Shown in pieces: positions 6,032-37,511 of a DNA stretch of 64,000 nucleotides. The notes below the pieces were generated by a model that was given only the letters and a program-made list of their open reading frames with translations, ran no database searches and had not been told where the DNA came from. A program made the position numbers and the translations under genes. The stretch is from a virus (Duplodnaviria; Heunggongvirae; Uroviricota; Caudoviricetes), in IMG/VR virus record IMGVR_UViG_3300015207_000448. One strand, given 5' to 3'. Position 1 is the first letter of the stretch; each line of letters opens with the position of its first letter.

Positions 6032-6829
6032 ATGGAATTGAAAAACGAACTTAAAAAGTTTATCGTTGACCGTACCACCCGGTACAACGTAATGGCTAAG
6101 AGCCAGGAAGCCGCTGAACTTGCTGCGGCAGGAGGAGTGATTTTCGGCAATCTGTCTGCGGATGCCGACCAGTTCTCAGTTTACCCTGAGGGAACAGAGG
6201 GTCAAGACGGCCTCAATCTCACGTCCAAGGACAATTCAACGCTTGACAACATCAAAGCTGAGGTCAAGCGTACCGGTGAAACACAAATTCTCATTGCGAT
6301 AGTTGGTGGAGGCTTTCTCACGAGAGACGAATATGCACACGCCAATGGAACGGACTTTAAGGATGCCGTCATCGGTATCGCTGTCATCACTCCGCTTATT
6401 TCTTTCATCGTGGGGCTCACTGAATGGAAGGAGCGCTGGAGTGAAGATGACGAGCATGTCGTGACTGAATCTCACACCGAAGCTCAAGCCTTCCAGGTTG
6501 TTTCCGGTCTGGAGCATACCCGTCAACTTGTCGATTGGCAAGAAGATGAAGGCAATACTGCCGCAAAAATGTGCTGGAACTACAAGCATAAAGGGCTTCA
6601 GTGGTATCTCCCGTGCCTGCTGGAGCTCAATGCCATCTGTGCAAACAAAGAAGAAATCAATGTGCTTCTGAAACTCGTCGGCGGTACGCCGCTCAGTTTG
6701 GATGAATGTTATTGGTCGTCCACTGAGCACTCGGCTGGCTACTCGTGGTTCGTCTACTTTGGCAGTGGTCTTAGCTACTACGGCAGCAAGTGCGGCACTA
6801 ACGTGGTTCGCCCTGCTGTTGCCATATAA
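6032..6829 (+). CDS. DGR-type target protein 1 with a DUF1566/C-type-lectin-like C-terminal domain
   Basis: C-terminus ECYWSSTEHSAGYSWFVYFGSGLSYYGSKCGTNVVRPAVAI is a DUF1566 signature (W-LP ... YWSST ... VR-V); paralogue of 11922..12590 with identity concentrated at the 3' end. Confidence 0.7.
   Translation: MELKNELKKFIVDRTTRYNVMAKSQEAAELAAAGGVIFGNLSADADQFSVYPEGTEGQDGLNLTSKDNSTLDNIKAEVKRTGETQILIAIVGGGFLTRDEYAHANGTDFKDAVIGIAVITPLISFIVGLTEWKERWSEDDEHVVTESHTEAQAFQVVSGLEHTRQLVDWQEDEGNTAAKMCWNYKHKGLQWYLPCLLELNAICANKEEINVLLKLVGGTPLSLDECYWSSTEHSAGYSWFVYFGSGLSYYGSKCGTNVVRPAVAI
6710..6826 (+). repeat. Variable region VR1, 117 nt
   Basis: Nucleotide-identical to 12471..12587 except at 7 codons, where only positions 1 and 2 differ and position 3 is fixed (cac/ggc, ttc/cgc, ctt/ggt, tac/ggc x2, ggc/tac, aac/tac). 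This pattern indicates adenine-specific mutagenesis of AAC codons. Confidence 0.6.
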
Positions 6830-6850
6830 GCTCAATCTTTAATCTTCACT

Positions 6851-6875
6851 GCCGGGCCAGTTTCTCTGGCCCGGC
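6851..6875 (+). promoter_or_regulatory. GC-rich hairpin 21 nt downstream of the VR1 stop (gccgggccag-tttctc-tggcccggc)
   Basis: Perfect 9-10 bp stem with no U-tract; identical copy after VR2; resembles the hairpin needed for DGR target recognition. Confidence 0.5.
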
Positions 6876-6894
6876 TATAAATCAAATCTCGATT

Positions 6895-11921: not shown

Positions 11922-12590
11922 ATGTCACAGTTAAATGTACTTCAGGAGCTGAGGGCTTCACTTGCCTTCGCCAACCGCTTTGACATCGCCAAAGCAAAAG
12001 ATGCCTACGATTTTATCATAGGCGAAAACGAGGAACAGCCTACCCTAAATGTGAACGTAGCGCCGCTTTCAGATGGAATCTACTATGTTATCAACGACAA
12101 AACGCTCGTTCCGGTAGCTCACCTTGAAACCGTCAACAAAGCAAGAGTTATCGGCGTCGCAGTTAAGATGTCCGACAAGATTGCGACTGTTGCTCTTCAC
12201 GATGCAGCTGATGGAGAAGAAGTCGCGCTTACCACAACAGAGAATAACGGCTCGTCAGAGTTTTTCCGTCCCGACTTTTGGGATGCGATGTCTGACTGGA
12301 ATGGCGAGGCCAACACCAAGGATTACGGCGACGACCTCAATCCGGCAATCAACCTTCAGCCTGGACAGTACATCCCGTCGCTCGCTCAGCTTCATCTGAT
12401 TCTCCTTAACATCAAGGAGGTCAATGCTGCTCTTGAAGCAGTGGGCGGCACACCGCTTCGCAAAGAGTGGTATTGGTCGTCCACTGAGGGCTCGGCTGGC
12501 TACTCGTGGCGCGTCTACTTTGGCAGTGGTGGTAGCGGCGGCGGCAGCAAGTGCTACACTTACGTGGTTCGCCCTGCTGTTGCGATATAA
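11922..12590 (+). CDS. DGR-type target protein 2 with a DUF1566/C-type-lectin-like C-terminus
   Basis: ORF 11841..12590 (GTG start) with probable Met start MSQLNVLQEL; C-terminus EWYWSSTEGSAGYSWRVYFGSGGSGGGSKCYTYVVRPAVAI. Confidence 0.7.
   Translation: MSQLNVLQELRASLAFANRFDIAKAKDAYDFIIGENEEQPTLNVNVAPLSDGIYYVINDKTLVPVAHLETVNKARVIGVAVKMSDKIATVALHDAADGEEVALTTTENNGSSEFFRPDFWDAMSDWNGEANTKDYGDDLNPAINLQPGQYIPSLAQLHLILLNIKEVNAALEAVGGTPLRKEWYWSSTEGSAGYSWRVYFGSGGSGGGSKCYTYVVRPAVAI
12471..12587 (+). repeat. Variable region VR2, 117 nt
   Basis: See VR1; the region from the VR through the downstream hairpin (about 12458-12651) is about 90% identical to 6697-6890, whereas the upstream coding sequence has diverged synonymously. 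Confidence 0.6.
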
Positions 12591-12611
12591 GCCTTACTCT
12601 TCATTCTTTCT

Positions 12612-12636
12612 GCCGGGCCAGTTTCTCTGGCCCGGC
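12612..12636 (+). promoter_or_regulatory. GC-rich hairpin 21 nt downstream of the VR2 stop
   Basis: gccgggccag-tttctc-tggcccggc, identical to the copy after VR1. Confidence 0.5.
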
Positions 12637-12659
12637 TATAAATCAAAATCTGAGATTAG

Positions 12660-13182: not shown

Positions 13183-14442
13183 GTGGACAAGATATTAGAA
13201 AAATTCTTCGAGCTTGAACGATGGGAATATGCCATTGACAAAGGCTTGGGAAAAGGAATTTCAAAAGCACAACTCTACCAGCTAACGAAGCCGGAAACAA
13301 GGGTTGCGATGTATGAGGCCATTCGAGATGGTAAGTACGAAATAGCACCACCTCACACTGCCAAAATACCCAAAGATAATGGCGAGTTCAGAACAGTTTA
13401 TATCAATGAACCGGCTGATCGAGTTTTATTGAGTATTGCCAATGATCTTCTGTTTGAATTGATGCCTGAGATGGTTCATCCGCAGTGTCAGTCATACCAG
13501 AAGGGAATTGGTTGTGGTAAGATTGTACAAGAAGTATCTCGAAAAATATGCGACACGAAGGGCGAAGTCATCGGTTGGAAGGCCGACTTTAGCAAGTATT
13601 TTGATAGTGTGCCGGTAAGGTTCATTGATGAAGCCTTTGACAAAGTTGAAGCGAAACATGGACATTCGGCACTGATTGATGTATTGCGAAAGTATTATCA
13701 TTCCGACTATTTCTTCACTCCTGAAGGTGAGCTGATGCAATCGTACCAATCATTGAAGCAAGGGTGCTCCGTCGCATCTTGGCTGGCTGATGTGGCCCTA
13801 TGCCACCTCGATGAACGGCTGTCTCAACTGGATGGCTACTATATTCGCTACTCTGATGATACGCTATTTGTCGGAGCTGATTACGAGAAAGCTATGGTGA
13901 TTATGGAAGATGAATTACATCAGATGGAAATGAAACTCAACCCCAAGAAAGTTGAGTATCTGACTCCTACGAAGTGGTTCAAATTTCTGGGGTTCTCAAT
14001 CAAGGGGGCTGCAATCTCACTCAGTTCAACCCGCATAAAGAAATTCCAAAAAGAGATTGAGAGGTTGACGATCAAAGCAAAGGATATTACGCTCCAAAAG
14101 GCTATCAATTCTGTAAATCGTTTTCTTTATAAAGGCTACGGTGAACATAGTTGGGCCACTCAAATATTACCTATTTGCAATGTCCACTCTGACATCCACG
14201 AATTGAATTGTTTTGTGATGGATTGTCTGAGAGCAGTAAAGACTGGTAAGAAGAAAATAGGCGGTCTTGGTTATGTGGTCACACAGGAGCAAGGCTGTAT
14301 TTCACGAGGCATTGGAAAGAACGTCAAGGCTAACCGTGAGAAAACAGCTAATATGATAAACCGATATTTGACGCTCTCTTGTATGCAAAATGCAATGCGT
14401 ACAAGCCGAGACGCTTATCGGACTTTGGTCGCTTCTCTCTAA
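13183..14442 (+). CDS. Reverse transcriptase RT1, of group II intron-like / DGR-type
   Basis: RT motifs present: PKDNGEFRTVYINEP, WKADFSKYFDSVP, LKQGCSVASWLADVAL, YIRYSDDTLFVG (YxDD), LNPKKVEY, FKFLGFSI; about 100 aa of C-terminal extension beyond the thumb. Confidence 0.85.
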   Translation: MDKILEKFFELERWEYAIDKGLGKGISKAQLYQLTKPETRVAMYEAIRDGKYEIAPPHTAKIPKDNGEFRTVYINEPADRVLLSIANDLLFELMPEMVHPQCQSYQKGIGCGKIVQEVSRKICDTKGEVIGWKADFSKYFDSVPVRFIDEAFDKVEAKHGHSALIDVLRKYYHSDYFFTPEGELMQSYQSLKQGCSVASWLADVALCHLDERLSQLDGYYIRYSDDTLFVGADYEKAMVIMEDELHQMEMKLNPKKVEYLTPTKWFKFLGFSIKGAAISLSSTRIKKFQKEIERLTIKAKDITLQKAINSVNRFLYKGYGEHSWATQILPICNVHSDIHELNCFVMDCLRAVKTGKKKIGGLGYVVTQEQGCISRGIGKNVKANREKTANMINRYLTLSCMQNAMRTSRDAYRTLVASL

Positions 14443-19031: not shown

Positions 19032-19823
19032 TTGTTTCAAATGAAAATCAAACGATTCAAGAAATTCAAAAATGGTATTGTTTATGCCCTTGCCCTGGAT
19101 GATGGAAGACTTATCGAAACCACCGATACATTCCTTCCTTTCTACACAAAGGATGCAATCGGGCGTAAGCAGAACAAACTCGACAATTCAAATCTCGGTG
19201 ATCGCACAGAGCGTTGGATGATAGGTGTATCAACTATGAGCGGATGTCCAGTTCATTGCAAGTTTTGCGCAACTGGAAATATGAAAGGTTGGCGCAATCT
19301 TACCGCTGATGAGATTGTCAGTCAAGTCATGTTTGCTATCGAACAGGCGGGTGCAGACCCGAATGAAGCAAAGGAGTTCAAGATTAACTATACTCGTATG
19401 GGCGAGCCTTTCCTTAATATCGAAAACGTCAAGGAGGCTATCCGCAGAATCACGGAGATTTACCCTAACACCCATCACTATGTCTCAACCATAGGTGTCA
19501 AAGACAGCGATTTTTCTTTTGTCAAGGGCAATGTCACACTCCAAATAAGTCTTCATTCGTTTGATGAGGCGCACCGAGACTGGCTGATTCCTTTCAAGAA
19601 GAAAATGAGTATTGAAGAACTCGGTCAGATTCGTACAGAGAGCAATCTCAAAACAACCATCAATCTTACTCTGGTGGAAGAAAGCGACTTTGACGCTGAC
19701 AAGCTACGTCAATACTTCGACCCGCGACACTTCTTTGTCAAGTTGTCTCCAATCAACCCTAACGAGGTTTCTGATGGGAACAATCTTGGCAAAGGTATAA
19801 TCGAGGGTGTAAACCTCGTATAA
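19032..19823 (+). CDS. Radical SAM protein related to RlmN/Cfr, short form
   Basis: MSGCPVHCKFCATG matches the RlmN/Cfr CxxxCxFCATG cluster; 263 aa is shorter than canonical RlmN. Confidence 0.55.
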   Translation: MFQMKIKRFKKFKNGIVYALALDDGRLIETTDTFLPFYTKDAIGRKQNKLDNSNLGDRTERWMIGVSTMSGCPVHCKFCATGNMKGWRNLTADEIVSQVMFAIEQAGADPNEAKEFKINYTRMGEPFLNIENVKEAIRRITEIYPNTHHYVSTIGVKDSDFSFVKGNVTLQISLHSFDEAHRDWLIPFKKKMSIEELGQIRTESNLKTTINLTLVEESDFDADKLRQYFDPRHFFVKLSPINPNEVSDGNNLGKGIIEGVNLV

Positions 19824-19987
19824 CACAATGTTTCATTATTAAAACAGAAAGGAGGACACTATGGAAGCTATCAAACGCTCTTTGGAAAGCATGGGCTACA
19901 GTTATGCGGTAGCCATTGCCACTCAGTCAGAGATTGAGAATGGCGCTGCTTGTGGACAGCTTGCTATTATCTGCGAGTAATCAGTTG

Positions 19988-20036
19988 GACGGAGGTGGAT
20001 AGAGACACCACCTTCTACCACCTCCGTCTTATTTCT
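19988..20036 (+). terminator. Rho-independent terminator
   Basis: gacggaggtgg ... ccacctccgtc followed by ttatttct. Confidence 0.55.
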
Positions 20037-20050
20037 AACAATCAACAAAT

Positions 20051-20260
20051 ATGGGCAAAACATTAAAACAGAAAGTGTACCACATCCTGTTCAACAAGGA
20101 TGGCAAAATGAACCTCAAAGTACCTCGGAAATTGCGTTGGAGCTATTTCAACAAGCTGCGCCGACATGATTTCGATCGAGACTTAGAGCGTGCAGAACTG
20201 GTAGATAAGCGAGACAAGGCGAGTCTGAAAGAAATGCGACAGCAAATCAATGATATATAA
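20051..20260 (+). CDS. Small basic protein
   Basis: ORF track; K/R-rich. Confidence 0.3.
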   Translation: MGKTLKQKVYHILFNKDGKMNLKVPRKLRWSYFNKLRRHDFDRDLERAELVDKRDKASLKEMRQQINDI

Positions 20261-20270
20261 GTAAGAAACT

Positions 20271-21479
20271 ATGAAAGTATTTCACAACATAATCGGTCAG
20301 GAGGTGAAGATTTTCGGGGATATACTCGAAGACGAAGCTCTGGCTCAAATACAGCGATTGGCTGATTTCAAGCCATACCAGAACTCGCATATCCGAATTA
20401 TGCCGGATGTCCACGCCGGTAAGGGTTGTACTATCGGTACGACTCTTGTATTGGATGACGCGGTTACACCCAACCTTGTAGGCGTTGACATCGGTTGCGG
20501 CATGTTCGTGGTTCCTCTTGGAAATGCAGAGATTGACCTTCCTTTGTTGGATCAAATCGTCAACGAAAAGATTCCCTCTGGATGCCACATTCACCCCAGT
20601 CCAATTGCACAATTCCCTATGTTAGAAAACTTAAAGTGCATCAAAGCAATTGACACTTATAAGGCATATTGTGCGTTAGGTTCTCTTGGTGGCGGTAATC
20701 ATTTCATTGAGCTGAATGAAGATGCAGAGGGTGGCAAGTTTCTTGTAATCCACTCAGGCAGCCGAAATCTCGGAGTGCGTGTATGTCAGTTCTATCAGAA
20801 GATTGCAGAAGAGCTGTGTCGCCAAGGATATGTGGACAGAAACGAAATTATTCAGCGATTAAAGGCTGAAGGTCGATCGCAGGAAATCCAGACAGAGTTA
20901 CAAAAGCTCAAGTCTAAAAATGAGCCAGTTCCCGATGGCTTGGCATATATCACTGGAGAAGTCAAGGATGACTATCTGCATGATATGTATATCGCTCAGG
21001 ATTATGCAAGGTTGAATCGCGAAACAATCGCCTACTTGATTTTGCAAGAACTGGGATTGAACTCTTGTATTGCCGCCAATGGGTTCCATACAGTTCATAA
21101 CTATATTGATACCAACGATAATGGTACAATATTACGCAAGGGTGCTGTCCGAGCCAACATGGGTGAAATGCTCATTATTCCAATGAATATGCGAGACGGT
21201 TCACTAATCTGTATCGGTAAGGGTAATCCAGACTGGAATTATTCCGCACCTCACGGAGCCGGTCGCTTGATGTCTCGTAAGAAGGCCAAGGAATCACTAT
21301 CTCTTGAAGAATTTGCAGATAATATGAAGGATGTATATTCGTCATCAGTCTGCGCTTTTACTCTTGATGAGGCTCCGATGGCATATAAGCCGATGCAAAG
21401 CATTGTGGATGCCATTCAAGAGACCGTTGATATTCAAAATATTATTCGTCCAATCTATAATTTCAAAGCTAAGGAATGA
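20271..21479 (+). CDS. rtcB: RtcB-family RNA 3'-phosphate ligase
   Basis: MPDVHAGKGCTIGT, GGGNHF and APHGAGRLMSR motifs; 402 aa. Confidence 0.85.
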   Translation: MKVFHNIIGQEVKIFGDILEDEALAQIQRLADFKPYQNSHIRIMPDVHAGKGCTIGTTLVLDDAVTPNLVGVDIGCGMFVVPLGNAEIDLPLLDQIVNEKIPSGCHIHPSPIAQFPMLENLKCIKAIDTYKAYCALGSLGGGNHFIELNEDAEGGKFLVIHSGSRNLGVRVCQFYQKIAEELCRQGYVDRNEIIQRLKAEGRSQEIQTELQKLKSKNEPVPDGLAYITGEVKDDYLHDMYIAQDYARLNRETIAYLILQELGLNSCIAANGFHTVHNYIDTNDNGTILRKGAVRANMGEMLIIPMNMRDGSLICIGKGNPDWNYSAPHGAGRLMSRKKAKESLSLEEFADNMKDVYSSSVCAFTLDEAPMAYKPMQSIVDAIQETVDIQNIIRPIYNFKAKE

Positions 21480-21760
21480 AAACAATATATAAATATCCAC
21501 TCGAATGGGCCGATGAACAGGCGATTGCGATGCCCAAAGGCGCAAAGATCTTATCTGTTCAGTGGATTAGAGGGCAAGTCTGTATTTATGCGCTTGTAGA
21601 TACTGATGAGAAAACGTGTGAGGCCCATCAGTTTCTCATTATCGGAACTGGACATCTCATCAGACCGAACACAGAACCGGCAGTGCATTACTTTTTAGGC
21701 ACTGTTCATAATGAGGATCAATCTTTAGTGTTCCACATTTTTGAAAAGAAAGAACAATGA
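21476..21760 (+). CDS. Small hypothetical protein
   Basis: ORF track. Confidence 0.3.
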   Translation: MKTIYKYPLEWADEQAIAMPKGAKILSVQWIRGQVCIYALVDTDEKTCEAHQFLIIGTGHLIRPNTEPAVHYFLGTVHNEDQSLVFHIFEKKEQ

Positions 21761-22368
21761 AAACAGGACAAACAATTCTTGTGGGCGCAGACGAAGCACC
21801 GAGCTTTCGCCCAATGAATTTCACCAACCCCAAAGTTGGCGTGATTCTGGCCCGCTTCCAGCCCATTCACAACGGCCACCTTGCCCTCATTGAGAAGGCT
21901 TGTAAAGAGAACGACCATGTACTGATACTCATAGGGTCAGCAGACAAGCTCAATGAACGCAACCCAATTCCGTGGACTATACGTCGTGAGCTGGTGACTG
22001 CGGCCATTGCAGAACGAGGCTTTGTCAATACATCCATCGAAGAACTCCAAGACCTTACTGATGAATCCGACAATAGCCATGATTGGGGTTTCTACCTCTA
22101 TGCTTCAGTGGTTTCCAAGACAAAATCGCCAGAGTTCACCATCTACTACTCTGATGGCTTCGAGATAATCACTTCGTGGTTCCCCGGCTTCCTTCTGAGA
22201 AACTGCGTATCATTATCGTTGCTGGCTCGAAATGCTTGTGAGGCCGGCATTTCTGCGACATCGGTGCGCGACATGATACTTTCAGATTCGCTTCCTGAAA
22301 GTGTGGTGCCAAAGTGTGTGTATGAGAAGCGAGAGTTGATTAAGGCATTTCTTAACGTGTTCAAATGA
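21757..22368 (+). CDS. NadM-type nicotinamide/nicotinate mononucleotide adenylyltransferase-like protein
   Basis: VGVILARFQPIHNGHLALIEKA ... LILIGSADK matches the NadM HxGH nucleotidyltransferase N-terminus (GRFQPFHxGH ... IGSA). Confidence 0.6.
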   Translation: MKTGQTILVGADEAPSFRPMNFTNPKVGVILARFQPIHNGHLALIEKACKENDHVLILIGSADKLNERNPIPWTIRRELVTAAIAERGFVNTSIEELQDLTDESDNSHDWGFYLYASVVSKTKSPEFTIYYSDGFEIITSWFPGFLLRNCVSLSLLARNACEAGISATSVRDMILSDSLPESVVPKCVYEKRELIKAFLNVFK

Positions 22369-23284: not shown

Positions 23285-23677
23285 ATGAAAGCAAAAGTAA
23301 GAGCGACTGGAGAAATCGTGGATGTTTACAATGCACCGCATCACCCAGATGTTTGGTATGGAGCAAGCCTTCTCCCTTATGGCACACGTGAGCTGGAGTT
23401 CATCGCTTATTCTCGATCCTTAACCGATGGTTTGTTGGCTCAATTCTCTGATCAAGAACTTCGTGAAGAGCTGAAGAATCGTGTTGATCTCCGTAAAGCA
23501 GCCCATATTTTCCTCCGTTGTCGTGATTGTAAGCACTGTGGTGAGGGGTGCTGTCATAAGAGTAGCCGTTACAAGACCTCAGTGTGCTTCCTGAAACCCA
23601 AACCACAAGTCGGTCCTGACCGCTATTATGCGACTCTCCTTTCGAGGAAGGCATGTGAAAATTTTGAACCGAAATAA
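23285..23677 (+). CDS. Cys-rich hypothetical protein; paralogue of 38846..39244 (minus strand)
   Basis: Start at the internal Met of ORF 23060..23677; shared KATGEIVDV-N-P--PD-WYGA, RDCK-C-EG, KPKP--G--RYYAT-LS-K-CE-FEPK. Confidence 0.45.
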   Translation: MKAKVRATGEIVDVYNAPHHPDVWYGASLLPYGTRELEFIAYSRSLTDGLLAQFSDQELREELKNRVDLRKAAHIFLRCRDCKHCGEGCCHKSSRYKTSVCFLKPKPQVGPDRYYATLLSRKACENFEPK

Positions 23678-23678
23678 C

Positions 23679-24944
23679 ATGAAATCTATAATAATATACT
23701 CTGGTAAAGGCGGCGTAGGTAAAACTACGGTGACAGCTAATTTGGCCAGATTACTTGCATCGCAAGGCAAAAAAGTGTTCGTGATTGATGCAGACATCAA
23801 TACTCCATCCATGAATACAGAGTTTGATGGTGAGCATCCAACCGACAATATTTGGGTTCACTCCAGTGGTAACATTTTTCAAAAATTTATTTACCTGGAA
23901 AAATCAATGGTAAGAAGGTATTTGGAAGATGCTAAAAAGAAACTTAATAAACTGGATGTGGATTATGTACTGATTGACACACCACCCAGTGTTACAAATA
24001 TCCACATTGAGCTGCTAAAACGATTGAGCGTAAGTTATATTCTCTTTGTTACTCAGCCCACAAAACTTAGTATTGAAGATGTAACTCGCACAATGGATTT
24101 TTTTAGAACGCAATGCGGGAAATTTTGTAAGGCTGGGGTGGTTGAAAACATGTGTTCTAACGCTAATGCACATGAATATTCAATACCCCTTATTGCTCAA
24201 ATTCCATTTCAAAATGGATTAGATACCAGCAACCTTCTTGATAATGCTAAAGATGAATTTCAGAAGATAGCTAATGAGATTTCATCGAGTGGAGAAGTCG
24301 TTCTCACGTCTTTTTCAACAGATGGTGGGTATGATGAAAGCTTTGATGTGATCAGCATCCGAGAAACAATTCTAAAGAATAGTCGCACAATTTACGTCCT
24401 TGAATTGAAATATGACAATGGCGATTGTAAAGAATTAAAACTCCCGGCTTTGAAATTTCTATCATGTCGTACTTGGGCTGCAATTTATGAGTTCATACAA
24501 GAAGAGGAGGCTCAAATGCCATTTGGACATTGGGACAAACGTATGGAAGCGTGCGGCGTAGATAGGGTATCACGTTTAGTCAACGCTTTTGAAGGAGATG
24601 ACAATGCGTTGTTCATGGTCAATAACGCTCCAAGTACAGAAGTTCAGTTAATAACTGGCGAAATCGGTTTATGTTCTCTTTTGACCAACGAAACATCGCA
24701 TTTTGGCATACCAAGAGTCAAATATCAAACGTCAAAGGGAAGCATAACGCTTTTCCCCGATGAAGTGATACCTATCTCAATTAACGAATTACAGTATTAT
24801 CTCAATAACGGCTATACTCCATTATCTGACGGTCGATATATACCAAGTAAAGAAGATTTATCTGTGATATACAATACTTTTGGCGAGAGGGTCGGCTTAA
24901 TGGAAAATTGGGAAGAAGTGTATGATTCATGGGTAAATCCATGA
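23679..24944 (+). CDS. ParA/MinD-family P-loop ATPase with a C-terminal extension of about 170 aa
   Basis: Walker A box IIYSGKGGVGKTTVTANLA, and DADINTPS; 421 aa. Confidence 0.75.
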   Translation: MKSIIIYSGKGGVGKTTVTANLARLLASQGKKVFVIDADINTPSMNTEFDGEHPTDNIWVHSSGNIFQKFIYLEKSMVRRYLEDAKKKLNKLDVDYVLIDTPPSVTNIHIELLKRLSVSYILFVTQPTKLSIEDVTRTMDFFRTQCGKFCKAGVVENMCSNANAHEYSIPLIAQIPFQNGLDTSNLLDNAKDEFQKIANEISSSGEVVLTSFSTDGGYDESFDVISIRETILKNSRTIYVLELKYDNGDCKELKLPALKFLSCRTWAAIYEFIQEEEAQMPFGHWDKRMEACGVDRVSRLVNAFEGDDNALFMVNNAPSTEVQLITGEIGLCSLLTNETSHFGIPRVKYQTSKGSITLFPDEVIPISINELQYYLNNGYTPLSDGRYIPSKEDLSVIYNTFGERVGLMENWEEVYDSWVNP

Positions 24945-25456: not shown

Positions 25457-25966
25457 TTGGGCGGCTTAGTAAAACCCAAACTGAACAAGATGAAACAATA
25501 CATCGGAACAAAGTTGGTGTCTGCCACGCCAGCGATTCGCAAAGGTGGCAAAGTTTATTCCCCGACAGATGAAATTCCTAAATCAATGGAGCCGGTCGAG
25601 GAGGGCTACAAAGTAATCTACGAGGGCGGTTATGAGAGCTGGAGTCCAAAAGACGTGTTTGAGAAGGCATATCGCCCTTGTGATGGCATGAACTTCGGAC
25701 TCGCCATTGAAGCTCTTAAACAGGGCAAGTGTGTCACTCGCAAAGGGTGGAATGGCAAAGGAATGTTCCTATGGCTCAAGCCCGGTGCAAACGTCAAAGC
25801 TGAGTGGTGCAAAGACCCCAAACTCTACGACCTCGCAATGCAGAACGGAGGCGAAATTGAAGCGCTCGGCACAATCTGTATGTTTACCGCTCAGAAACAA
25901 ATTCTCAGCGGTTGGCTCGCATCTCAGACAGACATGCTTGCTGAAGACTGGATGATTCTTGAGTGA
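25457..25966 (+). CDS. DUF2829-family protein (Tad2-like sponge candidate) with an N-terminal extension
   Basis: FGLAIEALKQGKCVTRKGWNGKGMFLWL ... WLASQTDMLAEDWMILE matches my recollection of the DUF2829 hallmarks. Confidence 0.5.
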   Translation: MGGLVKPKLNKMKQYIGTKLVSATPAIRKGGKVYSPTDEIPKSMEPVEEGYKVIYEGGYESWSPKDVFEKAYRPCDGMNFGLAIEALKQGKCVTRKGWNGKGMFLWLKPGANVKAEWCKDPKLYDLAMQNGGEIEALGTICMFTAQKQILSGWLASQTDMLAEDWMILE

Positions 25967-31478: not shown

Positions 31479-31563
31479 GGGTTAATGACGGAATTGGTAG
31501 ACGTGTCGGTCTCAAACACCGATGTTGAAAGACGTCCGGGTTCGACTCCCGGTTAGCCCACCA
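31479..31563 (+). tRNA. tRNA-Leu (CAA), type II with a long variable arm and an encoded CCA
   Basis: Acceptor gggttaa/ttagccc, anticodon loop ctCAAac, T-arm ccggg-ttcgact-cccgg. Confidence 0.7.
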
Positions 31564-31595
31564 AGAGAACATTTACATTTTAATCACCAAACATT

Positions 31596-32420
31596 ATGAA
31601 ACATTTCATTAAACTGTTTCTCGCACTGATTGTGTGCGTTGCAGTCTCCAGCTGTCATGGTGTCCGGCCTGAAGCTGACGAGGAAGCTGTGTTAATCAAA
31701 AAGCCGTGGTTCTTTGGGCATGGCGGTGTTGACTTGGAGCCGGTAAATACTGGCCTCACATGGTGCTTCTGGAGCACATCCTCAGAGTCGTTCAAGATTA
31801 CTCCTGTGCGTTATGAGGAAACCCTCGATGACATCATCTCTAACGAAAACACTCCGCTCGACTTCAAGACGCAGATTATCCTGCGCATTAAGAAAGGTAA
31901 GAGTCCGGTGCTTTTGCAGAACTACGGAGTCAACTGGTATGAGAACAACGTCAAAGAAGTTTACAACAACCTTACTCGACATTATGTCTCCCAGTATTCG
32001 CCATTTGATTTGACCAGTAACCGAGAAGTTGTCGCTCATATTGATTCTTGTGTGAAAGCCGACATGATCCGTTACATTGACCGACTATCTGTGGAGAAAG
32101 AATTTCCCATTGTTGTCGAGAATGTCATTACCGGTCGAGCGATTCCTAATGCAGCGCAGCTGAAGGAGATGAACAACACTGCGGCTCAGATTCAGGCAAA
32201 GCAAACTCAGGAGCGACGATACGAAACGGAGGTTGCACGAGAGCAGGCTGAACGACAACGCGCAGTATCAGATAAAGCCTATCAGCGAGAAATGGGTCTG
32301 ACTGCGGAACAGTTCATCAGTTTGAAAGCATGGGACGTAATCAACTCTAAGCAGGGTGCAAACATTGATGTCCTCTTCGATGGAGGCGCTTCCAGTACCA
32401 TGTGGAATATCAAGCGATGA
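31596..32420 (+). CDS. SPFH/band-7-like lipoprotein
   Basis: Signal peptide plus lipobox (VSSC); central beta-rich domain; C-terminal Ala/Gln/Arg-rich coiled coil. Confidence 0.45.
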   Translation: MKHFIKLFLALIVCVAVSSCHGVRPEADEEAVLIKKPWFFGHGGVDLEPVNTGLTWCFWSTSSESFKITPVRYEETLDDIISNENTPLDFKTQIILRIKKGKSPVLLQNYGVNWYENNVKEVYNNLTRHYVSQYSPFDLTSNREVVAHIDSCVKADMIRYIDRLSVEKEFPIVVENVITGRAIPNAAQLKEMNNTAAQIQAKQTQERRYETEVAREQAERQRAVSDKAYQREMGLTAEQFISLKAWDVINSKQGANIDVLFDGGASSTMWNIKR

Positions 32421-32496
32421 CAGTAATCCGCAATTAGAGATCACTATTAAACAAGAAACCGCAAAGAAGCAATATCCTTTGAGCCTTTGCGGATTT

Positions 32497-32569
32497 GGGG
32501 CCATAGCTCAGTTGGTAGAGCATCTGCTTTGCAAGCAGAAAGTCCGCAGTTCGAGTCTGCGTGGTTCCA
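32497..32569 (+). tRNA. tRNA-Ala (TGC)
   Basis: ggggcca acceptor with a G3-U70 pair, D-arm tagctcagttggtagagc, anticodon loop ttTGCaa, T-arm cgcag-ttcgagt-ctgcg. Confidence 0.75.
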
Positions 32570-32644
32570 CGAAAGGGTGGTGGGAGTTCGAGTCTCCCTG
32601 GAGTTCGCAAGGACTGCATAGTTTAGCGGTAGAACACCCTTTAT
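32570..32644 (+). other. tRNA-like fragments: an isolated T-arm (gggagttcgagtctccc) and an acceptor/D-arm-like segment (gcatagtttagcggtagaaca)
   Basis: No complete cloverleaf can be formed; flanked by intact tRNAs. Confidence 0.3.
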
Positions 32645-32718
32645 GGACTTGTAGCTCAGTTGGTCAGAGCAGCGGCCTCATAAGCCGATGGCCTCAGGTT
32701 CGATTCCTGACTTGTCCA
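32645..32718 (+). tRNA. tRNA-Met/Ile2 (CAT), with an imperfect acceptor stem
   Basis: D-arm tagctcagttggtcagagc, anticodon loop ctCATaa, T-arm tcagg-ttcgatt-cctga; two mismatches in the acceptor stem. Confidence 0.45.
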
Positions 32719-32720
32719 CA

Positions 32721-32791
32721 CATCCTTTGGCCGAGTGGTTAGGCGGCGGTCTGCAAAACCGTACACGCCGGTTCGAGTCCGGCATGGATGT
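32721..32791 (+). tRNA. tRNA-Cys (GCA) candidate
   Basis: D-arm gccgagtggttaggc, anticodon arm gcggt-ctGCAaa-accgt, T-arm gccgg-ttcgagt-ccggc; unusual C1 and one acceptor mismatch. Confidence 0.45.
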
Positions 32792-32796
32792 CTATT

Positions 32797-32869
32797 GGCT
32801 TCGCAGCTCAGTTGGTAGAGCGGTACGCTGTTAACGTAATGGTCGCAGGTTCGAGTCCTGCCGGAGCCG
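32797..32869 (+). tRNA. tRNA-Asn (GTT)
   Basis: Acceptor ggcttcg/cggagcc, D-arm gctcagttggtagagc, anticodon loop ctGTTaa, T-arm gcagg-ttcgagt-cctgc. Confidence 0.7.
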
Positions 32870-32885
32870 CAAATTGATATAGAAT

Positions 32886-33422
32886 ATGAGGAAAAGAACA
32901 GCATACATACGACAATACATTCAAGACCACCTTGACAAGACCAATGCAGAATTGGCTGATGATTTGCAAATGGAGAAGGGCTCGGTTCGGTATCACATCA
33001 GAGCATTAAAATTGCAAGGAGTGCGAAAGACATTGGGTTATTATCCACGTACCCCACATGATGAGTATATCAGAGAGCATTACCCCAACAAGTCTGCTTC
33101 TCTTATCGCTAAAGAAGTCGGAATGACCCCTGGCGGTGTACGATGCGCTGCTTACAGGTTAGGCATTAAACATAACCCAGGCTATGCAAGAGTGCAATGT
33201 AGTCATCGCCAAATTGGAGAAAATTTAACAGGTCAGCGTTTTGGGTATTTGGTAGTCAAGAGGCAATTAGGAACAAACAAGTATGGGCAAATGAGATATG
33301 AATGTTTATGTGATTGCGGAAAGATGACCGAATCGACAGCTGGGAATCTAAAACATGGACATAAAAAGTCTTGTGGCTGCTATCGTAGGCAACTGGCCGG
33401 GTTCAAGCGTAAGAAGCGCTAA
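32886..33422 (+). CDS. Protein with an N-terminal HTH and a C-terminal Cys-rich zinc module (homing-endonuclease-like); the domain is shared with 43821..44468 (minus strand)
   Basis: LTGQRFGYLVVKRQLG ... YECLCDCGK ... GHKKSCGC against LTGQRFNRLVAQKRDP ... WICQCDCGK ... GHTGSCGC. Confidence 0.45.
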   Translation: MRKRTAYIRQYIQDHLDKTNAELADDLQMEKGSVRYHIRALKLQGVRKTLGYYPRTPHDEYIREHYPNKSASLIAKEVGMTPGGVRCAAYRLGIKHNPGYARVQCSHRQIGENLTGQRFGYLVVKRQLGTNKYGQMRYECLCDCGKMTESTAGNLKHGHKKSCGCYRRQLAGFKRKKR

Positions 33423-33431
33423 ATAATATAC

Positions 33432-33503
33432 TGAGGCGTAGTTCAGTGGTAGAACAGTGGATTTTGGTTCCACGGGTCGTCGGTTCGAGCCCGACCGCCT
33501 CCG
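33432..33503 (+). tRNA. tRNA-Gln (TTG)
   Basis: D-arm tagttcagtggtagaac, anticodon arm gtgga-ttTTGgt-tccac, T-arm gtcgg-ttcgagc-ccgac. Confidence 0.7.
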
Positions 33504-33630
33504 CAACAATTTACTTTTTCCAAGAAGTGTTTAGATTTGAGAGCGGCGTGCGTGAGCATTATCCGCTCTTTTTTCATCAATCATAAAACTTCTGGTCAAT
33601 AAAATCTCTATTCGTAATAAAAGACAGATT

Positions 33631-34367: not shown

Positions 34368-34848
34368 TTTAGATATGTTGAGTATTGTAGGTTATATGTG
34401 TACACATAAACGTGTTAAGATGAAAATAATCAGAAGATAGGTATAAAGAATTGACCTGATTGGCATTGACTCAATTTTGTCAATTCCAATTATTGTTCTA
34501 TCTTTGCAACAGCAAATGAGAGCCGTTTGCCAAGTGAGTGTGCTAAAAGTGTGCGTTCACTACCCAAGACAAGTCTAAAACTGTACTATATATCAATCAG
34601 TTAGATTGTCAGAGTTTGTGGTGGCCTGGTGGCACCACGAGATTGATGAAACTCAGTTTACACTGTACACTAAGTGTTTACTGAGTTTCTCTTTTTATAG
34701 CTGATTATCTTAGAGTTAGCCCACTCTAAGTTCTGTCAATACCCTGTACACTTTGGGGTATTTTTGCAGTGTAGTGGCTTGGGTCAGTCAATGATGTGCA
34801 TATTTTGTGACAGACAATGCGCCAACATTAACTGATTAAAGCAACGTA

Positions 34849-36111
34849 ATGATTACAATCAACTATCAGATGTTCGGGACCAAAGGGTTCCAACTAAGAT
34901 TGAGGCTCTATCAGGATGGCGAGACAAAGTTTATCAACGTCACCAAAATGCTGAAAGGAGCCATCCAAAAGAAACACTGGAATCAGAAGAAGCAGCTCTT
35001 TATCCCAAGCTGCCCCTTCAGTGATGAGAACAATGCCATGCTGGTTCAGTTCCGGCAGAGGTACGATGAAATGGCAATCAACTGGACTGGCAGCGTGTTT
35101 GGTATGATAGCTGCTATGGAAACGGCCACAGAACCCTCTCAAAAGGCCCTGACGGTCTCAGAATTTATCCAGTATGTAGTTGACCAGCTCAACAAAAACA
35201 AGCACGCAGACGGCTCTGGAAAGGGCAGTTTTGAGAACTACCTGAAATGTGACAAAAGACTTCAGGAGTTCTGCAAGGCAAAAAAGATTAAATACTCAAA
35301 ACTGTTGATTACGGAGCTTAATGCAACTTTCGTGAATAACGTGTTTGAATGGGTCGAGCGCGCGCGTAAAGGCACAGGAATGTGCTATGTCTCAAAGATA
35401 CTCCATTCTTTGATTATGAAAGCTGATAAGGAGGGGTATCTGAAAGCTGAGGATTTCAAGAAATGCAACTGGTTCAAGAAACCAAGCTCCAGCTCCCAGA
35501 AGTTCCACACACTGACTGAAGAGCAATGTAAGAAGTTTACCACTCTGGATTTGTCATCAATCTCCAAGTCACCTCTGAATGAGCTGTACCGGGATTTCTG
35601 CCTCTTCATTCTCTACACCGGCCAGTCTGCTTGTGACGCGATCGCTCTCCGATATTCGGACATCAAGAAAATAGGCGGGATCAGTCACTTTGTGTTCAAC
35701 CGAAGAAAGATTGCTGAGAAGCAGGCGGTGCCTTGCTCTGTTCCAATCAATACAGAGCTTGACCGTATAATGCTCCGTTGGAGAAGGTTGGCAAAGGATG
35801 GGTACATTTTCCCCATCCGAAATAAGGAGAAGTTAAAAACTCAGACCACCAATAATGGGGATATAAAACACTTTATAGGGAATTTGAACAACTGGCTCAA
35901 AAAAGTCGGCAAGGCGCTGGGTTGTTCGTTTCCGCTGCATACCTACACTTTCAGGCACACAGCGATAACACATTATATCAGTAAGGGAGTGCCGGTCATA
36001 TATGTGTCGAATATGATGGGCACCAGTATAGAGAACTGTGAGAAGATCTACTACAACAATCAAGGTGATACTGCCAGCCGTAACAAAGTATTGGCAGCTA
36101 TGAAGTTCTAA
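34849..36111 (+). CDS. int: Tyrosine site-specific recombinase (integrase)
   Basis: C-terminal catalytic box HTYTFRHTAITHYISKGVPVIYVSNMMGTS; 420 aa; preceded by about 550 bp of noncoding DNA carrying the palindrome gtggtggcctggtggcaccac. Confidence 0.8.
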   Translation: MITINYQMFGTKGFQLRLRLYQDGETKFINVTKMLKGAIQKKHWNQKKQLFIPSCPFSDENNAMLVQFRQRYDEMAINWTGSVFGMIAAMETATEPSQKALTVSEFIQYVVDQLNKNKHADGSGKGSFENYLKCDKRLQEFCKAKKIKYSKLLITELNATFVNNVFEWVERARKGTGMCYVSKILHSLIMKADKEGYLKAEDFKKCNWFKKPSSSSQKFHTLTEEQCKKFTTLDLSSISKSPLNELYRDFCLFILYTGQSACDAIALRYSDIKKIGGISHFVFNRRKIAEKQAVPCSVPINTELDRIMLRWRRLAKDGYIFPIRNKEKLKTQTTNNGDIKHFIGNLNNWLKKVGKALGCSFPLHTYTFRHTAITHYISKGVPVIYVSNMMGTSIENCEKIYYNNQGDTASRNKVLAAMKF

Positions 36112-36567: not shown

Positions 36568-36778
36568 GAGTCCAGTATGAGAGTATGTAACAGACTCCGT
36601 TTCCCATATTTCCTAACTCAGCTTCAAGAATTACCGTCTGGCCTTTGGCAATCTTTTCTTTCAAAGGTTCTACACAATACTTCAGGAAAGTCTGATTTTC
36701 TTTACCAATAGGCCAATCCTTATCGAGTTTTGTGAGTACCTTATCGAGCATTGCGGGATTTGTCAGGCGGATTTTCAT
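36518..36778 (-). CDS. Small hypothetical protein
   Basis: ORF track. Confidence 0.3.
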   Translation of the reverse strand: MKIRLTNPAMLDKVLTKLDKDWPIGKENQTFLKYCVEPLKEKIAKGQTVILEAELGNMGNGVCYILSYWTLDEVPTDEEFLNNGNE

Positions 36779-37224
36779 TCGGGTTCGGAGATAACAACCC
36801 AGTCCTCAGCAAACACATCACTGATGGTTGGGGTCCATGAATTTGCTTCTCCAGTGTCTTTATTGTAGATTAGACACTGGTCTGTGTAGTCCACGAATGT
36901 TGCGTGTTCCATCACAAATTTCTTGGCTGCATCAGGAAGAGATTGCATCTTTGGAATGATCTCACCAGTGATATGAGCTGGAACTTGCTTGAACACTACC
37001 AGACTGAGACAATCCCAGCCACGTCTGCGAACCACCAGTCCTCGTTTCAGAGCTTTGATGGCATCGCCGAAGTCCATAACTTCAAGCTGTAACCAAGCGT
37101 TGTCATGGCCATAATCCACGGCAAACATGATCTGTTCTTCACTTTCTTTGTAGGTAGGATTGGCTTTTACAGCTTCCTGTGCAAAAGCCTTTGAAACTCC
37201 TACGATTGAATCAAACTTTTTCAT
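36775..37224 (-). CDS. DUF2829-family protein (Tad2-like candidate); paralogue of 25457..25966
   Basis: FGDAIKALKRGLVVRRRGWD ... SDVFAEDWVVI. Confidence 0.45.
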   Translation of the reverse strand: MKKFDSIVGVSKAFAQEAVKANPTYKESEEQIMFAVDYGHDNAWLQLEVMDFGDAIKALKRGLVVRRRGWDCLSLVVFKQVPAHITGEIIPKMQSLPDAAKKFVMEHATFVDYTDQCLIYNKDTGEANSWTPTISDVFAEDWVVISEPE

Positions 37225-37235
37225 TACTTCTCAGT

Positions 37236-37511
37236 TTAGTTTTGAACTTTGTCTTTGAGAGACTTGCTGGGTTTGAACACCGGCATCTTTCGGGCAGCGA
37301 TGTTTACGACTGTGCCAGTGGCGGGATTGCGACCCACCTTTGCTGCTCTTTCTTTTACCATGAAGTTGCCGAAGTCACGAAGCTCGATACGACCACCGCG
37401 AGCAAGTTCTTCAGTTACTGTTTCCATGAAGGCTTCTACACACTCGGTGACAGCCTTCTTCTCACGCCCGGTCTTTTGGGCGATCTCGTTTACAATGTCT
37501 GCTTTTGTCAT
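37236..37511 (-). CDS. hup: HU/IHF-family DNA-binding protein
   Basis: MTKADIVNEIAQKTG ... RIELRDFGNFMVKERAAKVGRNPATG ... signature; 91 aa. Confidence 0.8.
   Translation of the reverse strand: MTKADIVNEIAQKTGREKKAVTECVEAFMETVTEELARGGRIELRDFGNFMVKERAAKVGRNPATGTVVNIAARKMPVFKPSKSLKDKVQN

What the first reader, a model, noticed from the sequence alone, without database searches (positions are those of the whole stretch)
25457..25966. Duplicated DUF2829 (Tad2-like) genes, one in each arm
Both 25457..25966 and 36775..37224 end in the ALK-G--V-R-GW ... W-ASQ-D--AEDW pattern that I associate with DUF2829. The Thoeris anti-defence sponge Tad2 belongs to that family. Each copy also carries a 50-75-aa N-terminal extension.
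Basis: partly seen in the sequence, partly recalled or inferred. Interest (0 to 1): 0.6.

Follow-up and report, generated by a model that had tools for sequence, protein, structure and literature searches.

The report
Two different Tad2-family genes, two prophages
The two genes are real members of the phage Tad2 (DUF2829) family of immune-signal "sponges", but they are distant relatives carried by two separate prophages sitting side by side, not a duplication; only one keeps the known Thoeris-signal pocket.

Summary
Both ORFs carry a C-terminal Pfam PF11195 (Tad2-like) domain: A, 25490-25966 +, E 1.5e-23; B, 36775-37224 -, E 1e-15.

"Duplicated, one in each arm" does not hold. The domains are about 25% identical and the N-terminal extensions are unrelated. 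The "arms" are two related but diverged BS-TP1-like prophages of a Muribaculaceae genome. They lie in tandem and meet at a tRNA-Phe att core (34625-34640).

A keeps 9 of 12 HgmTad2 gcADPR-pocket residues, including all five mutagenesis-validated ones, and 1 of 9 cyclic-dinucleotide-pocket residues. I predict a type I Thoeris sponge.

B keeps 3 of 12. GWNGKG has become GWDCLS, and this is conserved in its clade. It shares the W-T-P-S/T-V/I-S-D motif of the His-ADPR binder ModTad2. Its insertion domain matches SptTad2 in length and is nearly invariant in its subfamily. I predict a sponge of changed specificity; the ligand is unknown.

B's extension is homologous to the solved two-helix head domain of P. 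dorei AcrIIA7 (E 1.2e-9). A's 66-aa extension has no Pfam family and no confident fold match. It recurs in front of three validated sponge families (Tad2, Acb4, Sequestin), which is the most interesting lead.

Verdict: new members of a known kind.

The parts
25490..25966 (+). ORF A, 158 aa (169 aa if the upstream TTG at 25457 is used): N-terminal domain plus Tad2-like domain
   Evidence: (PHROG 872 over the full length, E 5.5e-49). The exact 158-aa sequence is indexed in 75 blocks of the assembly collection.
25490..25687 (+). A, N-terminal domain (aa 1-66): four beta-strands plus one helix. No Pfam family. A phage-specific module that recurs in front of other sponge domains.
25688..25963 (+). 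A, Tad2-like domain (aa 67-158) with a canonical gcADPR pocket: GWNGKG at 25745-25762 and WLASQTD at 25913-25933
   Evidence: Pfam E 1.5e-23. Foldseek to SptTad2, HgmTad2, ModTad2 and SPO1 Tad2 gives target-normalised TM-score (TMt) 0.69-0.89. Pocket mapping; translation.
36775..37224 (-). ORF B, 149 aa: two-helix head domain plus divergent Tad2-like domain
   Evidence: The exact sequence is indexed in 5578 blocks and seen on at least 1000 contigs, named 'MULTISPECIES: DUF2829 domain-containing protein [Bacteroidales]'.
37078..37224 (-). B, N-terminal head domain (aa 1-49), homologous to the head domain of P. dorei AcrIIA7 (PDB 9KZR)
   Evidence: A profile of head segments alone hits 9KZR residues 1-37 at E 1.2e-9; the next hit is at 0.056. 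Structure described in PMC13133391.
36790..37077 (-). B, Tad2-like domain (aa 50-145). The diphosphate loop is remodelled to GWDCLS (37003-37020). The C-terminal motif is WTPTISD. The insertion is 35 residues, the same length as in SptTad2.
34625..34640 (+). Shared att core (CCTGGTGGCACCACGA, the 3' end of tRNA-Phe). This is the junction between the arm-1 prophage (to the left) and the arm-2 prophage (to the right).
   Evidence: Homology to arm-2-type loci stops at 34625 and to arm-1-type loci at 34637-34642. In other genomes the arm-2 integrase end abuts an intact tRNA-Phe(GAA). The core occurs once in the window.
34849..36111 (+). Tyrosine integrase of the arm-2 prophage, the element that carries ORF B
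   Evidence: The same 420-aa integrase lies convergent to the B gene in L001-L006 (PF00589). blastn identity 96.9-99.9% through to 34625.

Best explanation
The window holds two related but diverged temperate phages of a Muribaculaceae host, relatives of the 111.7-kb Bacteroides phage BS-TP1. They are integrated in tandem at the 3' end of tRNA-Phe. Each carries its own modular Tad2-family gene in its accessory region.

Shown: family membership of both C-terminal domains; the Tad2 fold for A; the residue pattern of both pockets; homology of B's N-terminus to the AcrIIA7 head domain; and the separate-prophage context.

Inferred: both proteins form homotetramers that soak up host nucleotide immune signals during infection or induction, so the effector is never triggered.

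ORF A keeps the complete ADPR-type pocket of HgmTad2/SPO1 Tad2. It is therefore predicted to sequester 1''-3'/1''-2' gcADPR and block type I Thoeris. It lacks the cGG/cGAMP contacts of HgmTad2. Its own 30-residue insertion is strongly conserved (KAEWCKDP...NGGEIEALG) and may form a different second site.

ORF B belongs to a Bacteroidales subfamily. In that subfamily the insertion domain, which is the site of the cyclic-dinucleotide/cUMP pocket in HgmTad2, SptTad2 and ModTad2, is almost invariant. Its ADPR-pocket motif resembles that of the His-ADPR binder ModTad2. In B's own clade the diphosphate-binding N-G has become D-C. B is therefore predicted not to bind gcADPR in the canonical way. It is predicted to act through the insertion pocket and/or on a different ADPR derivative.

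The N-terminal domains are accessory modules. The AcrIIA7-type head does not prevent binding of cyclic signalling molecules in the solved homologue. The role of A's N-domain is unknown.
For: Family and fold: Pfam PF11195 at 83.6 and 58.5 bits against a cut-off of 25. phmmer to 8WJD, 8KBI, 9KZR, 9EIB and 8SME. AF2 model of A has pLDDT 89, with Foldseek E 1.9e-9 and TMt 0.77 to SptTad2, and TMt 0.81-0.89 to ModTad2.

Pocket definitions come from 10.1101/2023.11.15.567273. The mapping gives: A gcADPR pocket 9/12 identical (W87 N88 G89 M131 W142 L143 S145 T147 D148) and CDN pocket 1/9. B gcADPR pocket 3/12, or 6/12 against ModTad2. B CDN pocket 3/9 identical (S95 T114 N128) plus I85 and Y113 as conservative changes.

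GWDCLS/GWDSLS is conserved in relatives at 68-99% identity, whereas 73 of the 120 nearest homologues have GWNGKG. The B-subfamily insertion is invariant at K79 Q80 P82 A83 I85 P91-P97 A100 K101 Y113 Q116-L118 Y120.

The family is experimentally known to inhibit Thoeris I, II and IV, CBASS and Pycsar, using two separate pockets (PMC12393519). Head-bearing pdAcrIIA7 still binds cyclic signalling molecules (PMC13133391).

Prophage context: mirror synteny at 25-74% aa identity, separate circulation, the junction, and synteny with BS-TP1.
Against: There is no binding or infection data for these proteins. No Tad2 with A's N-terminal domain is known to me to have been tested, and that domain could occlude the pocket or the tetramer interface. 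The inter-domain geometry in the model is uncertain (pTM 0.62).

B lacks N22/G23 and several other contacts, and could have lost sponge activity altogether. R31, a guanine contact in HgmTad2, is Q80 in B.

I did not show that Muribaculaceae hosts encode Thoeris, CBASS or Pycsar.

The E. coli prophage homologue of A (Kapi1_043, 44.6% identity, full length) is the most highly expressed Kapi1 gene in a lysogen whose host has no Thoeris (PMC12922286). That hints at a role beyond anti-Thoeris.
Confidence: 0.6

Rival explanations
1. Anti-CRISPR of the AcrIIA7 type. The tetramer core binds type II-A tracrRNA in a basic groove and prevents guide-RNA and Cas9 RNP assembly.
For: AcrIIA7/HgmTad2 is a close solved relative (8KBI at E 1e-18 for A; 9KZR at E 1e-11 for B, including the head). 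Some phage homologues of A are annotated 'anti-CRISPR protein'. Of the groove residues K58/K66/K71/K93/R101, A keeps the first three (K77 K85 K90). B keeps K60, R68 and K102. This is my mapping.
Against: Full-length, head-bearing pdAcrIIA7 did not inhibit SpyCas9 cleavage in the sgRNA assay; only the headless form did. B has lost the K71 and K93 equivalents (L73, Q94). The residues A keeps are near-invariant across the whole Tad2 family, so they do not discriminate. AcrIIA7 did not bind type II-C tracrRNA. From my own knowledge, untested here, Bacteroidales mainly carry non-II-A CRISPR types. Li et al. could not reproduce Acr activity.
Confidence: 0.1
2. ORF B is a Tad2-fold protein that no longer acts as a nucleotide sponge. 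It would be a degenerate pocket retained for another role, such as structural or regulatory.
For: Only 3/12 canonical pocket residues remain. N22D puts a negative charge where the diphosphate binds. In the related phage BS-TP2 the DUF2829 gene lies among head-tail genes.
Against: The exact sequence is extremely widespread and the clade-specific loop is conserved, so it is under selection. The insertion domain that forms the second pocket is nearly invariant across the subfamily. Two-pocket usage is documented in the family.
Confidence: 0.2
3. One reading: a gene duplicated within one genome with two arms, both copies being gcADPR sponges.
For: Both arms are syntenic and each has one DUF2829 gene.
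Against: The two genes are about 25% identical, with unrelated N-termini. Each arm occurs alone in other genomes with its own boundary. An att core lies at the junction and tRNA-Phe at the arm-2 end elsewhere. B's pocket is not conserved.
Confidence: 0.02

Closest known systems
SptTad2 / HgmTad2 (PDB 8WJD, 8KBI-8KBM): Bacteroidota-phage Tad2 sponges with two pockets (gcADPR plus cGG/cGAMP)
   Same: They are the best sequence matches for both ORFs and the best fold match for A. A shares the gcADPR pocket. B shares the 35-residue insertion length of SptTad2 and the KSLPDAxKKF-like helix.
   Different: A has a shorter insertion (30 aa against 41/35), lacks R31/S47/F70/N85 and carries a 66-aa N-terminal domain. 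B lacks most of the gcADPR pocket (GWDCLS; WTPTISD) and carries a head domain.
pdAcrIIA7 from Phocaeicola dorei (PDB 9KZR; PMC13133391)
   Same: Same architecture as B: a two-helix N-terminal head of about 48 aa, then the core and extended Tad2 domains. The head is homologous (E 1.2e-9).
   Different: The pdAcrIIA7 core is nearly identical to HgmTad2 (GWNGKG, GWLASQTD). B's core is about 29% identical to HgmTad2, with remodelled pocket and groove residues.
ModTad2 / MoTad2 from a Myroides odoratus prophage (PDB 9EIB, 8V3E): binds His-ADPR and cUMP/cCMP
   Same: B and its whole subfamily share the C-terminal W-T/V-P-S/T-V/I-S-D-x-x-A-E-D-W motif with ModTad2 (TWTPSVSDILAEDW). 6/12 pocket positions are identical.
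   Different: ModTad2 keeps GWNGKG and has a short 24-aa insertion. B has GWDCLS and a 35-aa insertion. The ModTad2 ligand-contact residues were not available to me.
Sponge-sponge fusions (Tad2-Acb4, Tad2-Sequestin PF21825, Sequestin-Acb4; 10.1101/2025.07.12.664507), including BS-TP1 gp86
   Same: The Tad2 domain is modular. The BS-TP1 homologue (239 aa) and database relatives such as P0130 combine the A-type N-domain, Sequestin and a B-type Tad2 domain.
   Different: The window's proteins carry neither Sequestin nor Acb4. Their partners are the head domain (B) and a Pfam-less beta-rich domain (A) whose function is untested.

Membership tests
Pfam PF11195 Tad2-like (DUF2829) | HMM match above the curated gathering score | tested here: met
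   A 83.6 bits and B 58.5 bits against a cut-off of 25. hhalign A-family vs B-family gives probability 99% over the domain.
Pfam PF11195 Tad2-like (DUF2829) | Tad2 fold (superposes on solved Tad2 structures) | tested here: met
   Tested for A only: AF2 pLDDT 89; Foldseek E 1.9e-9 to 4e-5 for 24 Tad2 chains; TMt 0.69-0.89. For B the evidence is sequence only (E 4.4e-17 to 8WJD).
Tad2 gcADPR sponge (SPO1 Tad2 / HgmTad2 type, anti-type I Thoeris) | Conserved gcADPR pocket: W21 N22 G23 M76 A78 T82 V84 W87 L88 S90 T92 D93 (HgmTad2 numbering) | tested here: met
   ORF A: 9/12 identical. All five mutagenesis-validated positions (W21, N22, S90, T92, D93) are kept. The changes are A78T, T82Q and V84L, at positions that also vary in SptTad2.
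Tad2 gcADPR sponge (SPO1 Tad2 / HgmTad2 type, anti-type I Thoeris) | The same pocket, in ORF B | tested here: not met
   ORF B: 3/12 identical (W70, W130, D136), with N22->D71, G23->C72, L88->T131 and others. GWDCLS confirmed by translation.
Tad2 with cyclic-dinucleotide pocket (HgmTad2 / SptTad2 type, anti-CBASS) | Long insertion between beta2 and beta5, with R31 P32 D34 L36 K46 S47 F70 T71 N85 | tested here: inconclusive
   A: 1/9 identical and a 30-aa insertion, so effectively not met. B: 35-aa insertion equal to SptTad2; 3/9 identical (S95 T114 N128) plus L36I and F70Y; R31->Q80. The insertion is nearly invariant in B's subfamily.
Tad2 sponge (any ligand) | Homotetramer that binds and releases intact signal; inhibition of Thoeris, CBASS or Pycsar in vivo | not testable with these tools
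   Needs SEC-MALS, ITC or HPLC depletion, and plaque assays.
AcrIIA7 (tracrRNA-binding anti-CRISPR) | Head, core and extended domain architecture | tested here: met
   B only: the head-only profile hits 9KZR residues 1-37 at E 1.2e-9. A's N-domain is unrelated.
AcrIIA7 (tracrRNA-binding anti-CRISPR) | Basic groove residues K58 K66 K71 K93 R101 (pdAcrIIA7 numbering) | tested here: inconclusive
   A keeps K77, K85 and K90 (3/5), but these are family-wide. B keeps K60, R68 and K102 and loses K71->L73 and K93->Q94. This is hand mapping.
ModTad2-like (His-ADPR / type II Thoeris sponge) | ModTad2-type pocket motif | tested here: inconclusive
   B shares W-T-P-T/S-I/V-S-D and 6/12 aligned pocket positions, but not GWNGKG.

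The most novel reading that the evidence does not exclude
The 66-aa N-terminal domain of ORF A is an undescribed anti-defence module. It has no Pfam family and no confident match to any solved fold. It has more than 1300 representative homologues. It may carry its own ligand pocket, or it may be a shared accessory (oligomerisation, regulation or targeting) domain. The reason to think so is that it recurs at the N-terminus of at least three unrelated, experimentally validated sponge families: Tad2, Acb4/PF13876 and Sequestin/PF21825. One case also precedes an Acb2/Tad1 hairpin domain. This is the same 'guilt by fusion' signal that led to the discovery of Sequestin. That screen only looked at domains with a Pfam family, so it would have missed this one. 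Separately, ORF B's GWDCLS clade may define a Tad2 specificity not yet characterised.
Probability: 0.3. Interest if true: 0.65.

Novelty: new member of a known kind. Interest (0 to 1): 0.36.

Why it matters
Tad2 homologues number in the thousands, so finding two more in gut prophages is expected. Three things are useful here.

1. A widespread Muribaculaceae/Bacteroidales prophage carries a Tad2 variant whose canonical Thoeris-signal pocket has been rebuilt while its second pocket is frozen. The exact B protein is indexed in 5578 blocks of the assembly collection. This is a natural experiment in sponge specificity, in a host group whose immune signalling is little studied.

2. Two co-resident prophages carry pocket-complementary sponges. 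This suggests that polylysogens pool counter-defences.

3. A's N-terminal domain is a testable candidate for a new sponge-associated module.

Tried and rejected
- Megablast of 20 kb of the window against INPHARED phages found nothing. Protein-level searches were needed.
- The genome-contig scan with B returned only one close relative, in a Sangeribacter MAG, and did not name the source genome. The host was inferred from protein names instead.
- I considered whether the N-domain is Lockin and think this unlikely. Lockin was not found in INPHARED genomes, whereas this domain is in at least 87 INPHARED records. No strong PDB match appeared, though I could not confirm that the Lockin structure is in the PDB copy.
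- I looked for a DGR template repeat matching the two VR-like 183-nt repeats. There was no ungapped match in the window.
- I could not obtain ModTad2-His-ADPR contact residues or the tested Tad2 sequences from the literature held.
- I rejected 'one phage with an inverted duplication', because each arm circulates separately with its own ends.

Full report
**1. What is in the sequence**

ORF A runs 25457..25966 on the + strand from a TTG (169 aa). ORF B runs 36775..37224 on the - strand (149 aa). For A, the conserved start is the ATG at 25490 (158 aa). The family consensus begins MxKYIGxK, and most database gene calls for the identical protein are 158 aa (sequence).

Both proteins match Pfam PF11195 (Tad2-like, formerly DUF2829) well above the curated cut-off of 25 bits. 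A scores 83.6 bits (E 1.5e-23). B scores 58.5 bits (E 1e-15). In each case the match is one C-terminal domain.

Both also match every solved Tad2 structure by sequence. SptTad2 (8WJD) is best, at E 5e-23 and 4e-17.

An AlphaFold2 model of A (pLDDT 89) superposes on 24 Tad2 chains. Against SptTad2 the Foldseek E-value is 1.9e-9 and the target-normalised TM-score (TMt) is 0.77. Against ModTad2, TMt is 0.81-0.89.

An HMM built from the A family finds only these two Tad2 domains in all six frames of the window. One correction: the 'W-ASQ-D' half of the quoted pattern is present in A (WLASQTD) but not in B (WTPTISD).

**2. Not a duplication: two prophages**

A and B share 24% identity, and only across the C-terminal domain. 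A profile-profile comparison of the two families aligns only A 58-158 with B 41-148 (probability 99%). The N-terminal extensions are therefore unrelated.

All-against-all BLASTP of the window's ORFs shows that the + arm and the - arm are mirror-image syntenic. Identity is only 25-74% aa, and one module is transposed.

Each arm occurs on its own in other assemblies.
- The exact B protein is indexed in 5578 blocks of the assembly collection. In all six places examined the arrangement is HU - B - 86 aa - 116-126 aa - integrase (opposite strand), followed by varied host genes.
- The exact A protein is in 75 blocks, with its own neighbourhood.

blastn of those loci against the window locates the boundary. 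Arm-2-type homology stops at 34625. Arm-1-type homology stops at 34637-34642.

The 16 bases in between (CCTGGTGGCACCACGA) are the 3' end of tRNA-Phe(GAA). In L001-L006 the integrase end of the arm-2 element abuts an intact tRNA-Phe. In the window that position is occupied by the right end of the arm-1 element, and no tRNA-Phe is called there.

The window therefore holds two tandem prophages that share an att core. The integrase at 34849..36111 belongs to the element that carries B.

Source names place the host in Muribaculaceae/Bacteroidales.

Both elements are syntenic with the isolated temperate Bacteroides phage BS-TP1 (111.7 kb). Shared genes and identities to arm 1 are RT 74%, RtcB 77%, ParA-like 62% and cytidylyltransferase 66%. 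BS-TP1 has one DUF2829 gene, of a third architecture (PMC12694917).

**3. The pockets**

Li et al. (10.1101/2023.11.15.567273) define two pockets in HgmTad2.
- The gcADPR pocket is W21 N22 G23 M76 A78 T82 V84 W87 L88 S90 T92 D93. The W21A/N22A and S90A/T92A/D93A mutants lose binding.
- The cyclic-dinucleotide pocket lies in the insertion 32-72 and comprises R31 P32 D34 L36 K46 S47 F70 T71 N85. The S47A, F70A and R31A/N85A mutants lose binding.

I mapped these positions with MAFFT against HgmTad2, SptTad2, pdAcrIIA7 and ModTad2.

| Protein | gcADPR pocket | CDN pocket | Insertion length |
|---|---|---|---|
| A | 9/12 identical, including all five mutated positions (W87 N88; S145 T147 D148) | 1/9 identical | 30 aa |
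| B | 3/12 identical (W70 W130 D136) | 3/9 identical (S95 T114 N128), plus I85 and Y113 conservative; R31->Q80 | 35 aa, as in SptTad2 |
| HgmTad2 (reference) | 12/12 | 9/9 | 41 aa |

A's insertion is itself highly conserved in its family (K103 W106 C107 ... N119 G120 G121).

In B, the loop GWNGKG is GWDCLS (translation verified).

Among B's 120 nearest homologues, 73 have GWNGKG. Only B and its relatives at 68-99% identity have GWDCLS or GWDSLS. The change is therefore derived and maintained.

B's whole subfamily carries W-T/V-P-S/T-V/I-S-D instead of W-L-A-S-Q-T-D. This is the motif of ModTad2 (TWTPSVSD). ModTad2 binds His-ADPR in the equivalent pocket and cUMP/cCMP in the second pocket (PMC12393519).

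Across head-bearing members of B's subfamily the insertion is almost invariant, while the first-pocket loop varies (GWNGKG, GWDCLS, DWD-LN, IWARVG). I infer that the insertion pocket is the constant functional site of this subfamily. I also infer that B's first pocket has been lost or retargeted.

**4. The N-terminal extensions**

B's first 49 residues are homologous to the two-helix 'head domain' of P. dorei AcrIIA7. A profile made only from head segments hits 9KZR residues 1-37 at E 1.2e-9, and the next hit is at 0.056.

In that protein the head does not affect tetramerisation or the binding of cyclic signalling molecules. It does block the sgRNA binding and Cas9 inhibition that the headless form shows (PMC13133391).

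The A architecture as a whole is very common.
- PHROG 872 covers the full length.
- 7971 of the 8000 candidates scored (a capped set) have E<=1e-5.
- 87 INPHARED phages of Proteobacteria, Firmicutes and Bacteroidota cover at least 80% of it.

Searching the N-domain alone against 1.84 billion representatives gives 1333 hits at E<=1e-3. Among the best 150:
- 42 carry Tad2;
- 18 carry PF21825;
- 15 carry PF13876;
- 1 carries an Acb2/Tad1 hairpin domain;
- many are short, either stand-alone or fragmentary;
- one example, P0369, is N-domain + Acb4 + Sequestin.

PF13876 is the Acb4 sponge. PF21825 is the Sequestin sponge. Sequestin was discovered precisely because it is fused to Tad2 and Acb4, in a screen restricted to Pfam families. 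Neither sponge paper I checked for it mentions this N-domain (Acb4; Sequestin fusion and Lockin sections), and a text search on 'DUF2829' plus 'N-terminal' turned up no description of it.

It is thus a candidate further sponge-associated module. This is inference, not demonstration.

**5. Mechanism and rivals**

*Best-supported reading (confidence 0.6).* Both proteins are tetrameric nucleotide-signal sponges made by the two prophages.
- A targets gcADPR, the type I Thoeris signal.
- B has changed specificity and acts mainly through its insertion pocket and/or on another ADPR derivative.

*Anti-CRISPR rival (0.1).*
- A keeps K58/K66/K71 equivalents, but these are family-wide.
- B loses two of the five groove residues.
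- Full-length, head-bearing AcrIIA7 was inactive against Cas9 in the sgRNA assay.

*B as a non-sponge (0.2).* This cannot be excluded. It sits poorly with the strong conservation of the insertion and with the protein's very wide spread.

*Caveat for A.* Its E. coli prophage homologue Kapi1_043 (44.6% identity, full length) is the most highly expressed Kapi1 gene in a lysogen whose host lacks Thoeris (PMC12922286). A role during lysogeny or against other signals is therefore possible.

**6. Novelty and score**

Tad2 is a large, well-studied family. One study counted 2,783 non-redundant homologues in IMG/VR. Head-bearing and fused forms are already described.

These are new members of a known kind.
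- The duplication reading was wrong.
- The pocket test passes for A and fails for B.

The interest lies in B's remodelled pocket and, more so, in A's unannotated N-terminal module.

Noticed in passing
window 34580-34700 (core 34625-34640); L001-L012: Two related prophages of roughly 100 kb class lie in tandem and share the 3' end of tRNA-Phe(GAA) as att core. In other genomes the arm-1-type element is followed either by host genes (L008, L011) or by a different integrase gene (L007, L010, L012). The site looks like a recurrent landing pad for several elements.
   Followed up: partly
window 13183-14442 (+) and 54554-55828 (-); 6704-6886 and 12465-12647: Each prophage encodes a reverse transcriptase; the two are 74% identical (PHROG 1423). 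Arm 1 has two 183-nt repeats, 85% identical, at the 3' ends of two genes with an Lcl_C/DUF1566-like C-terminus. Mismatches cluster in codon pairs, as in DGR variable regions. BS-TP1 is reported to carry a DGR. I found no template repeat in the window.
   Followed up: partly
window 19032-22368 and 31479-33504: Arm 1 carries a block of radical SAM, RtcB RNA ligase, DUF7352 and a cytidylyltransferase/NMNAT-like gene (PHROG 3462, E 1e-8), plus a cluster of six tRNA genes (Leu, Ala, Met, Cys, Asn, Gln). Together with the Tad2 gene this looks like a counter-defence toolkit covering tRNA repair or replacement and possibly NAD+ resynthesis. Not tested.
   Followed up: no
P0299-P0448 (homologues of window 25490-25687): The N-terminal domain of ORF A occurs in front of Tad2, Acb4 (PF13876), Sequestin (PF21825) and one Acb2/Tad1 hairpin domain. 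It also occurs alone, once as a tandem pair (P0307), and once as N-domain + Acb4 + Sequestin (P0369).
   Followed up: yes
L021 (Escherichia phage Kapi1, MT813197.1 17438-17959): Kapi1_043 is the full-length homologue of ORF A (44.6% identity). It is reported as the most highly expressed gene of the Kapi1 prophage in the lysogen under all conditions, in a host without Thoeris (PMC12922286).
   Followed up: partly
window 23628-24944 (+): A ParA/MinD-like ATPase (438 aa as listed; 421 aa in database calls) has a long C-terminal extension of about 230 aa. It is conserved in BS-TP1 (62% identity). This may indicate a partition function, which is unusual for an integrating phage.
   Followed up: no
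window 37236-37511 (-): An HU-family DNA-binding protein gene lies immediately upstream of ORF B, with an 11-nt gap. The arrangement is the same in every place examined for this prophage.
   Followed up: no
L013 (Bacteroides phage BS-TP2, PQ571275.1 42361-42861): In BS-TP2 the head-bearing DUF2829 gene (44% identical to B) sits inside the head-tail morphogenesis module, between an HK97 gp10-like gene and a DUF3168-like gene, rather than in an accessory region.
   Followed up: no
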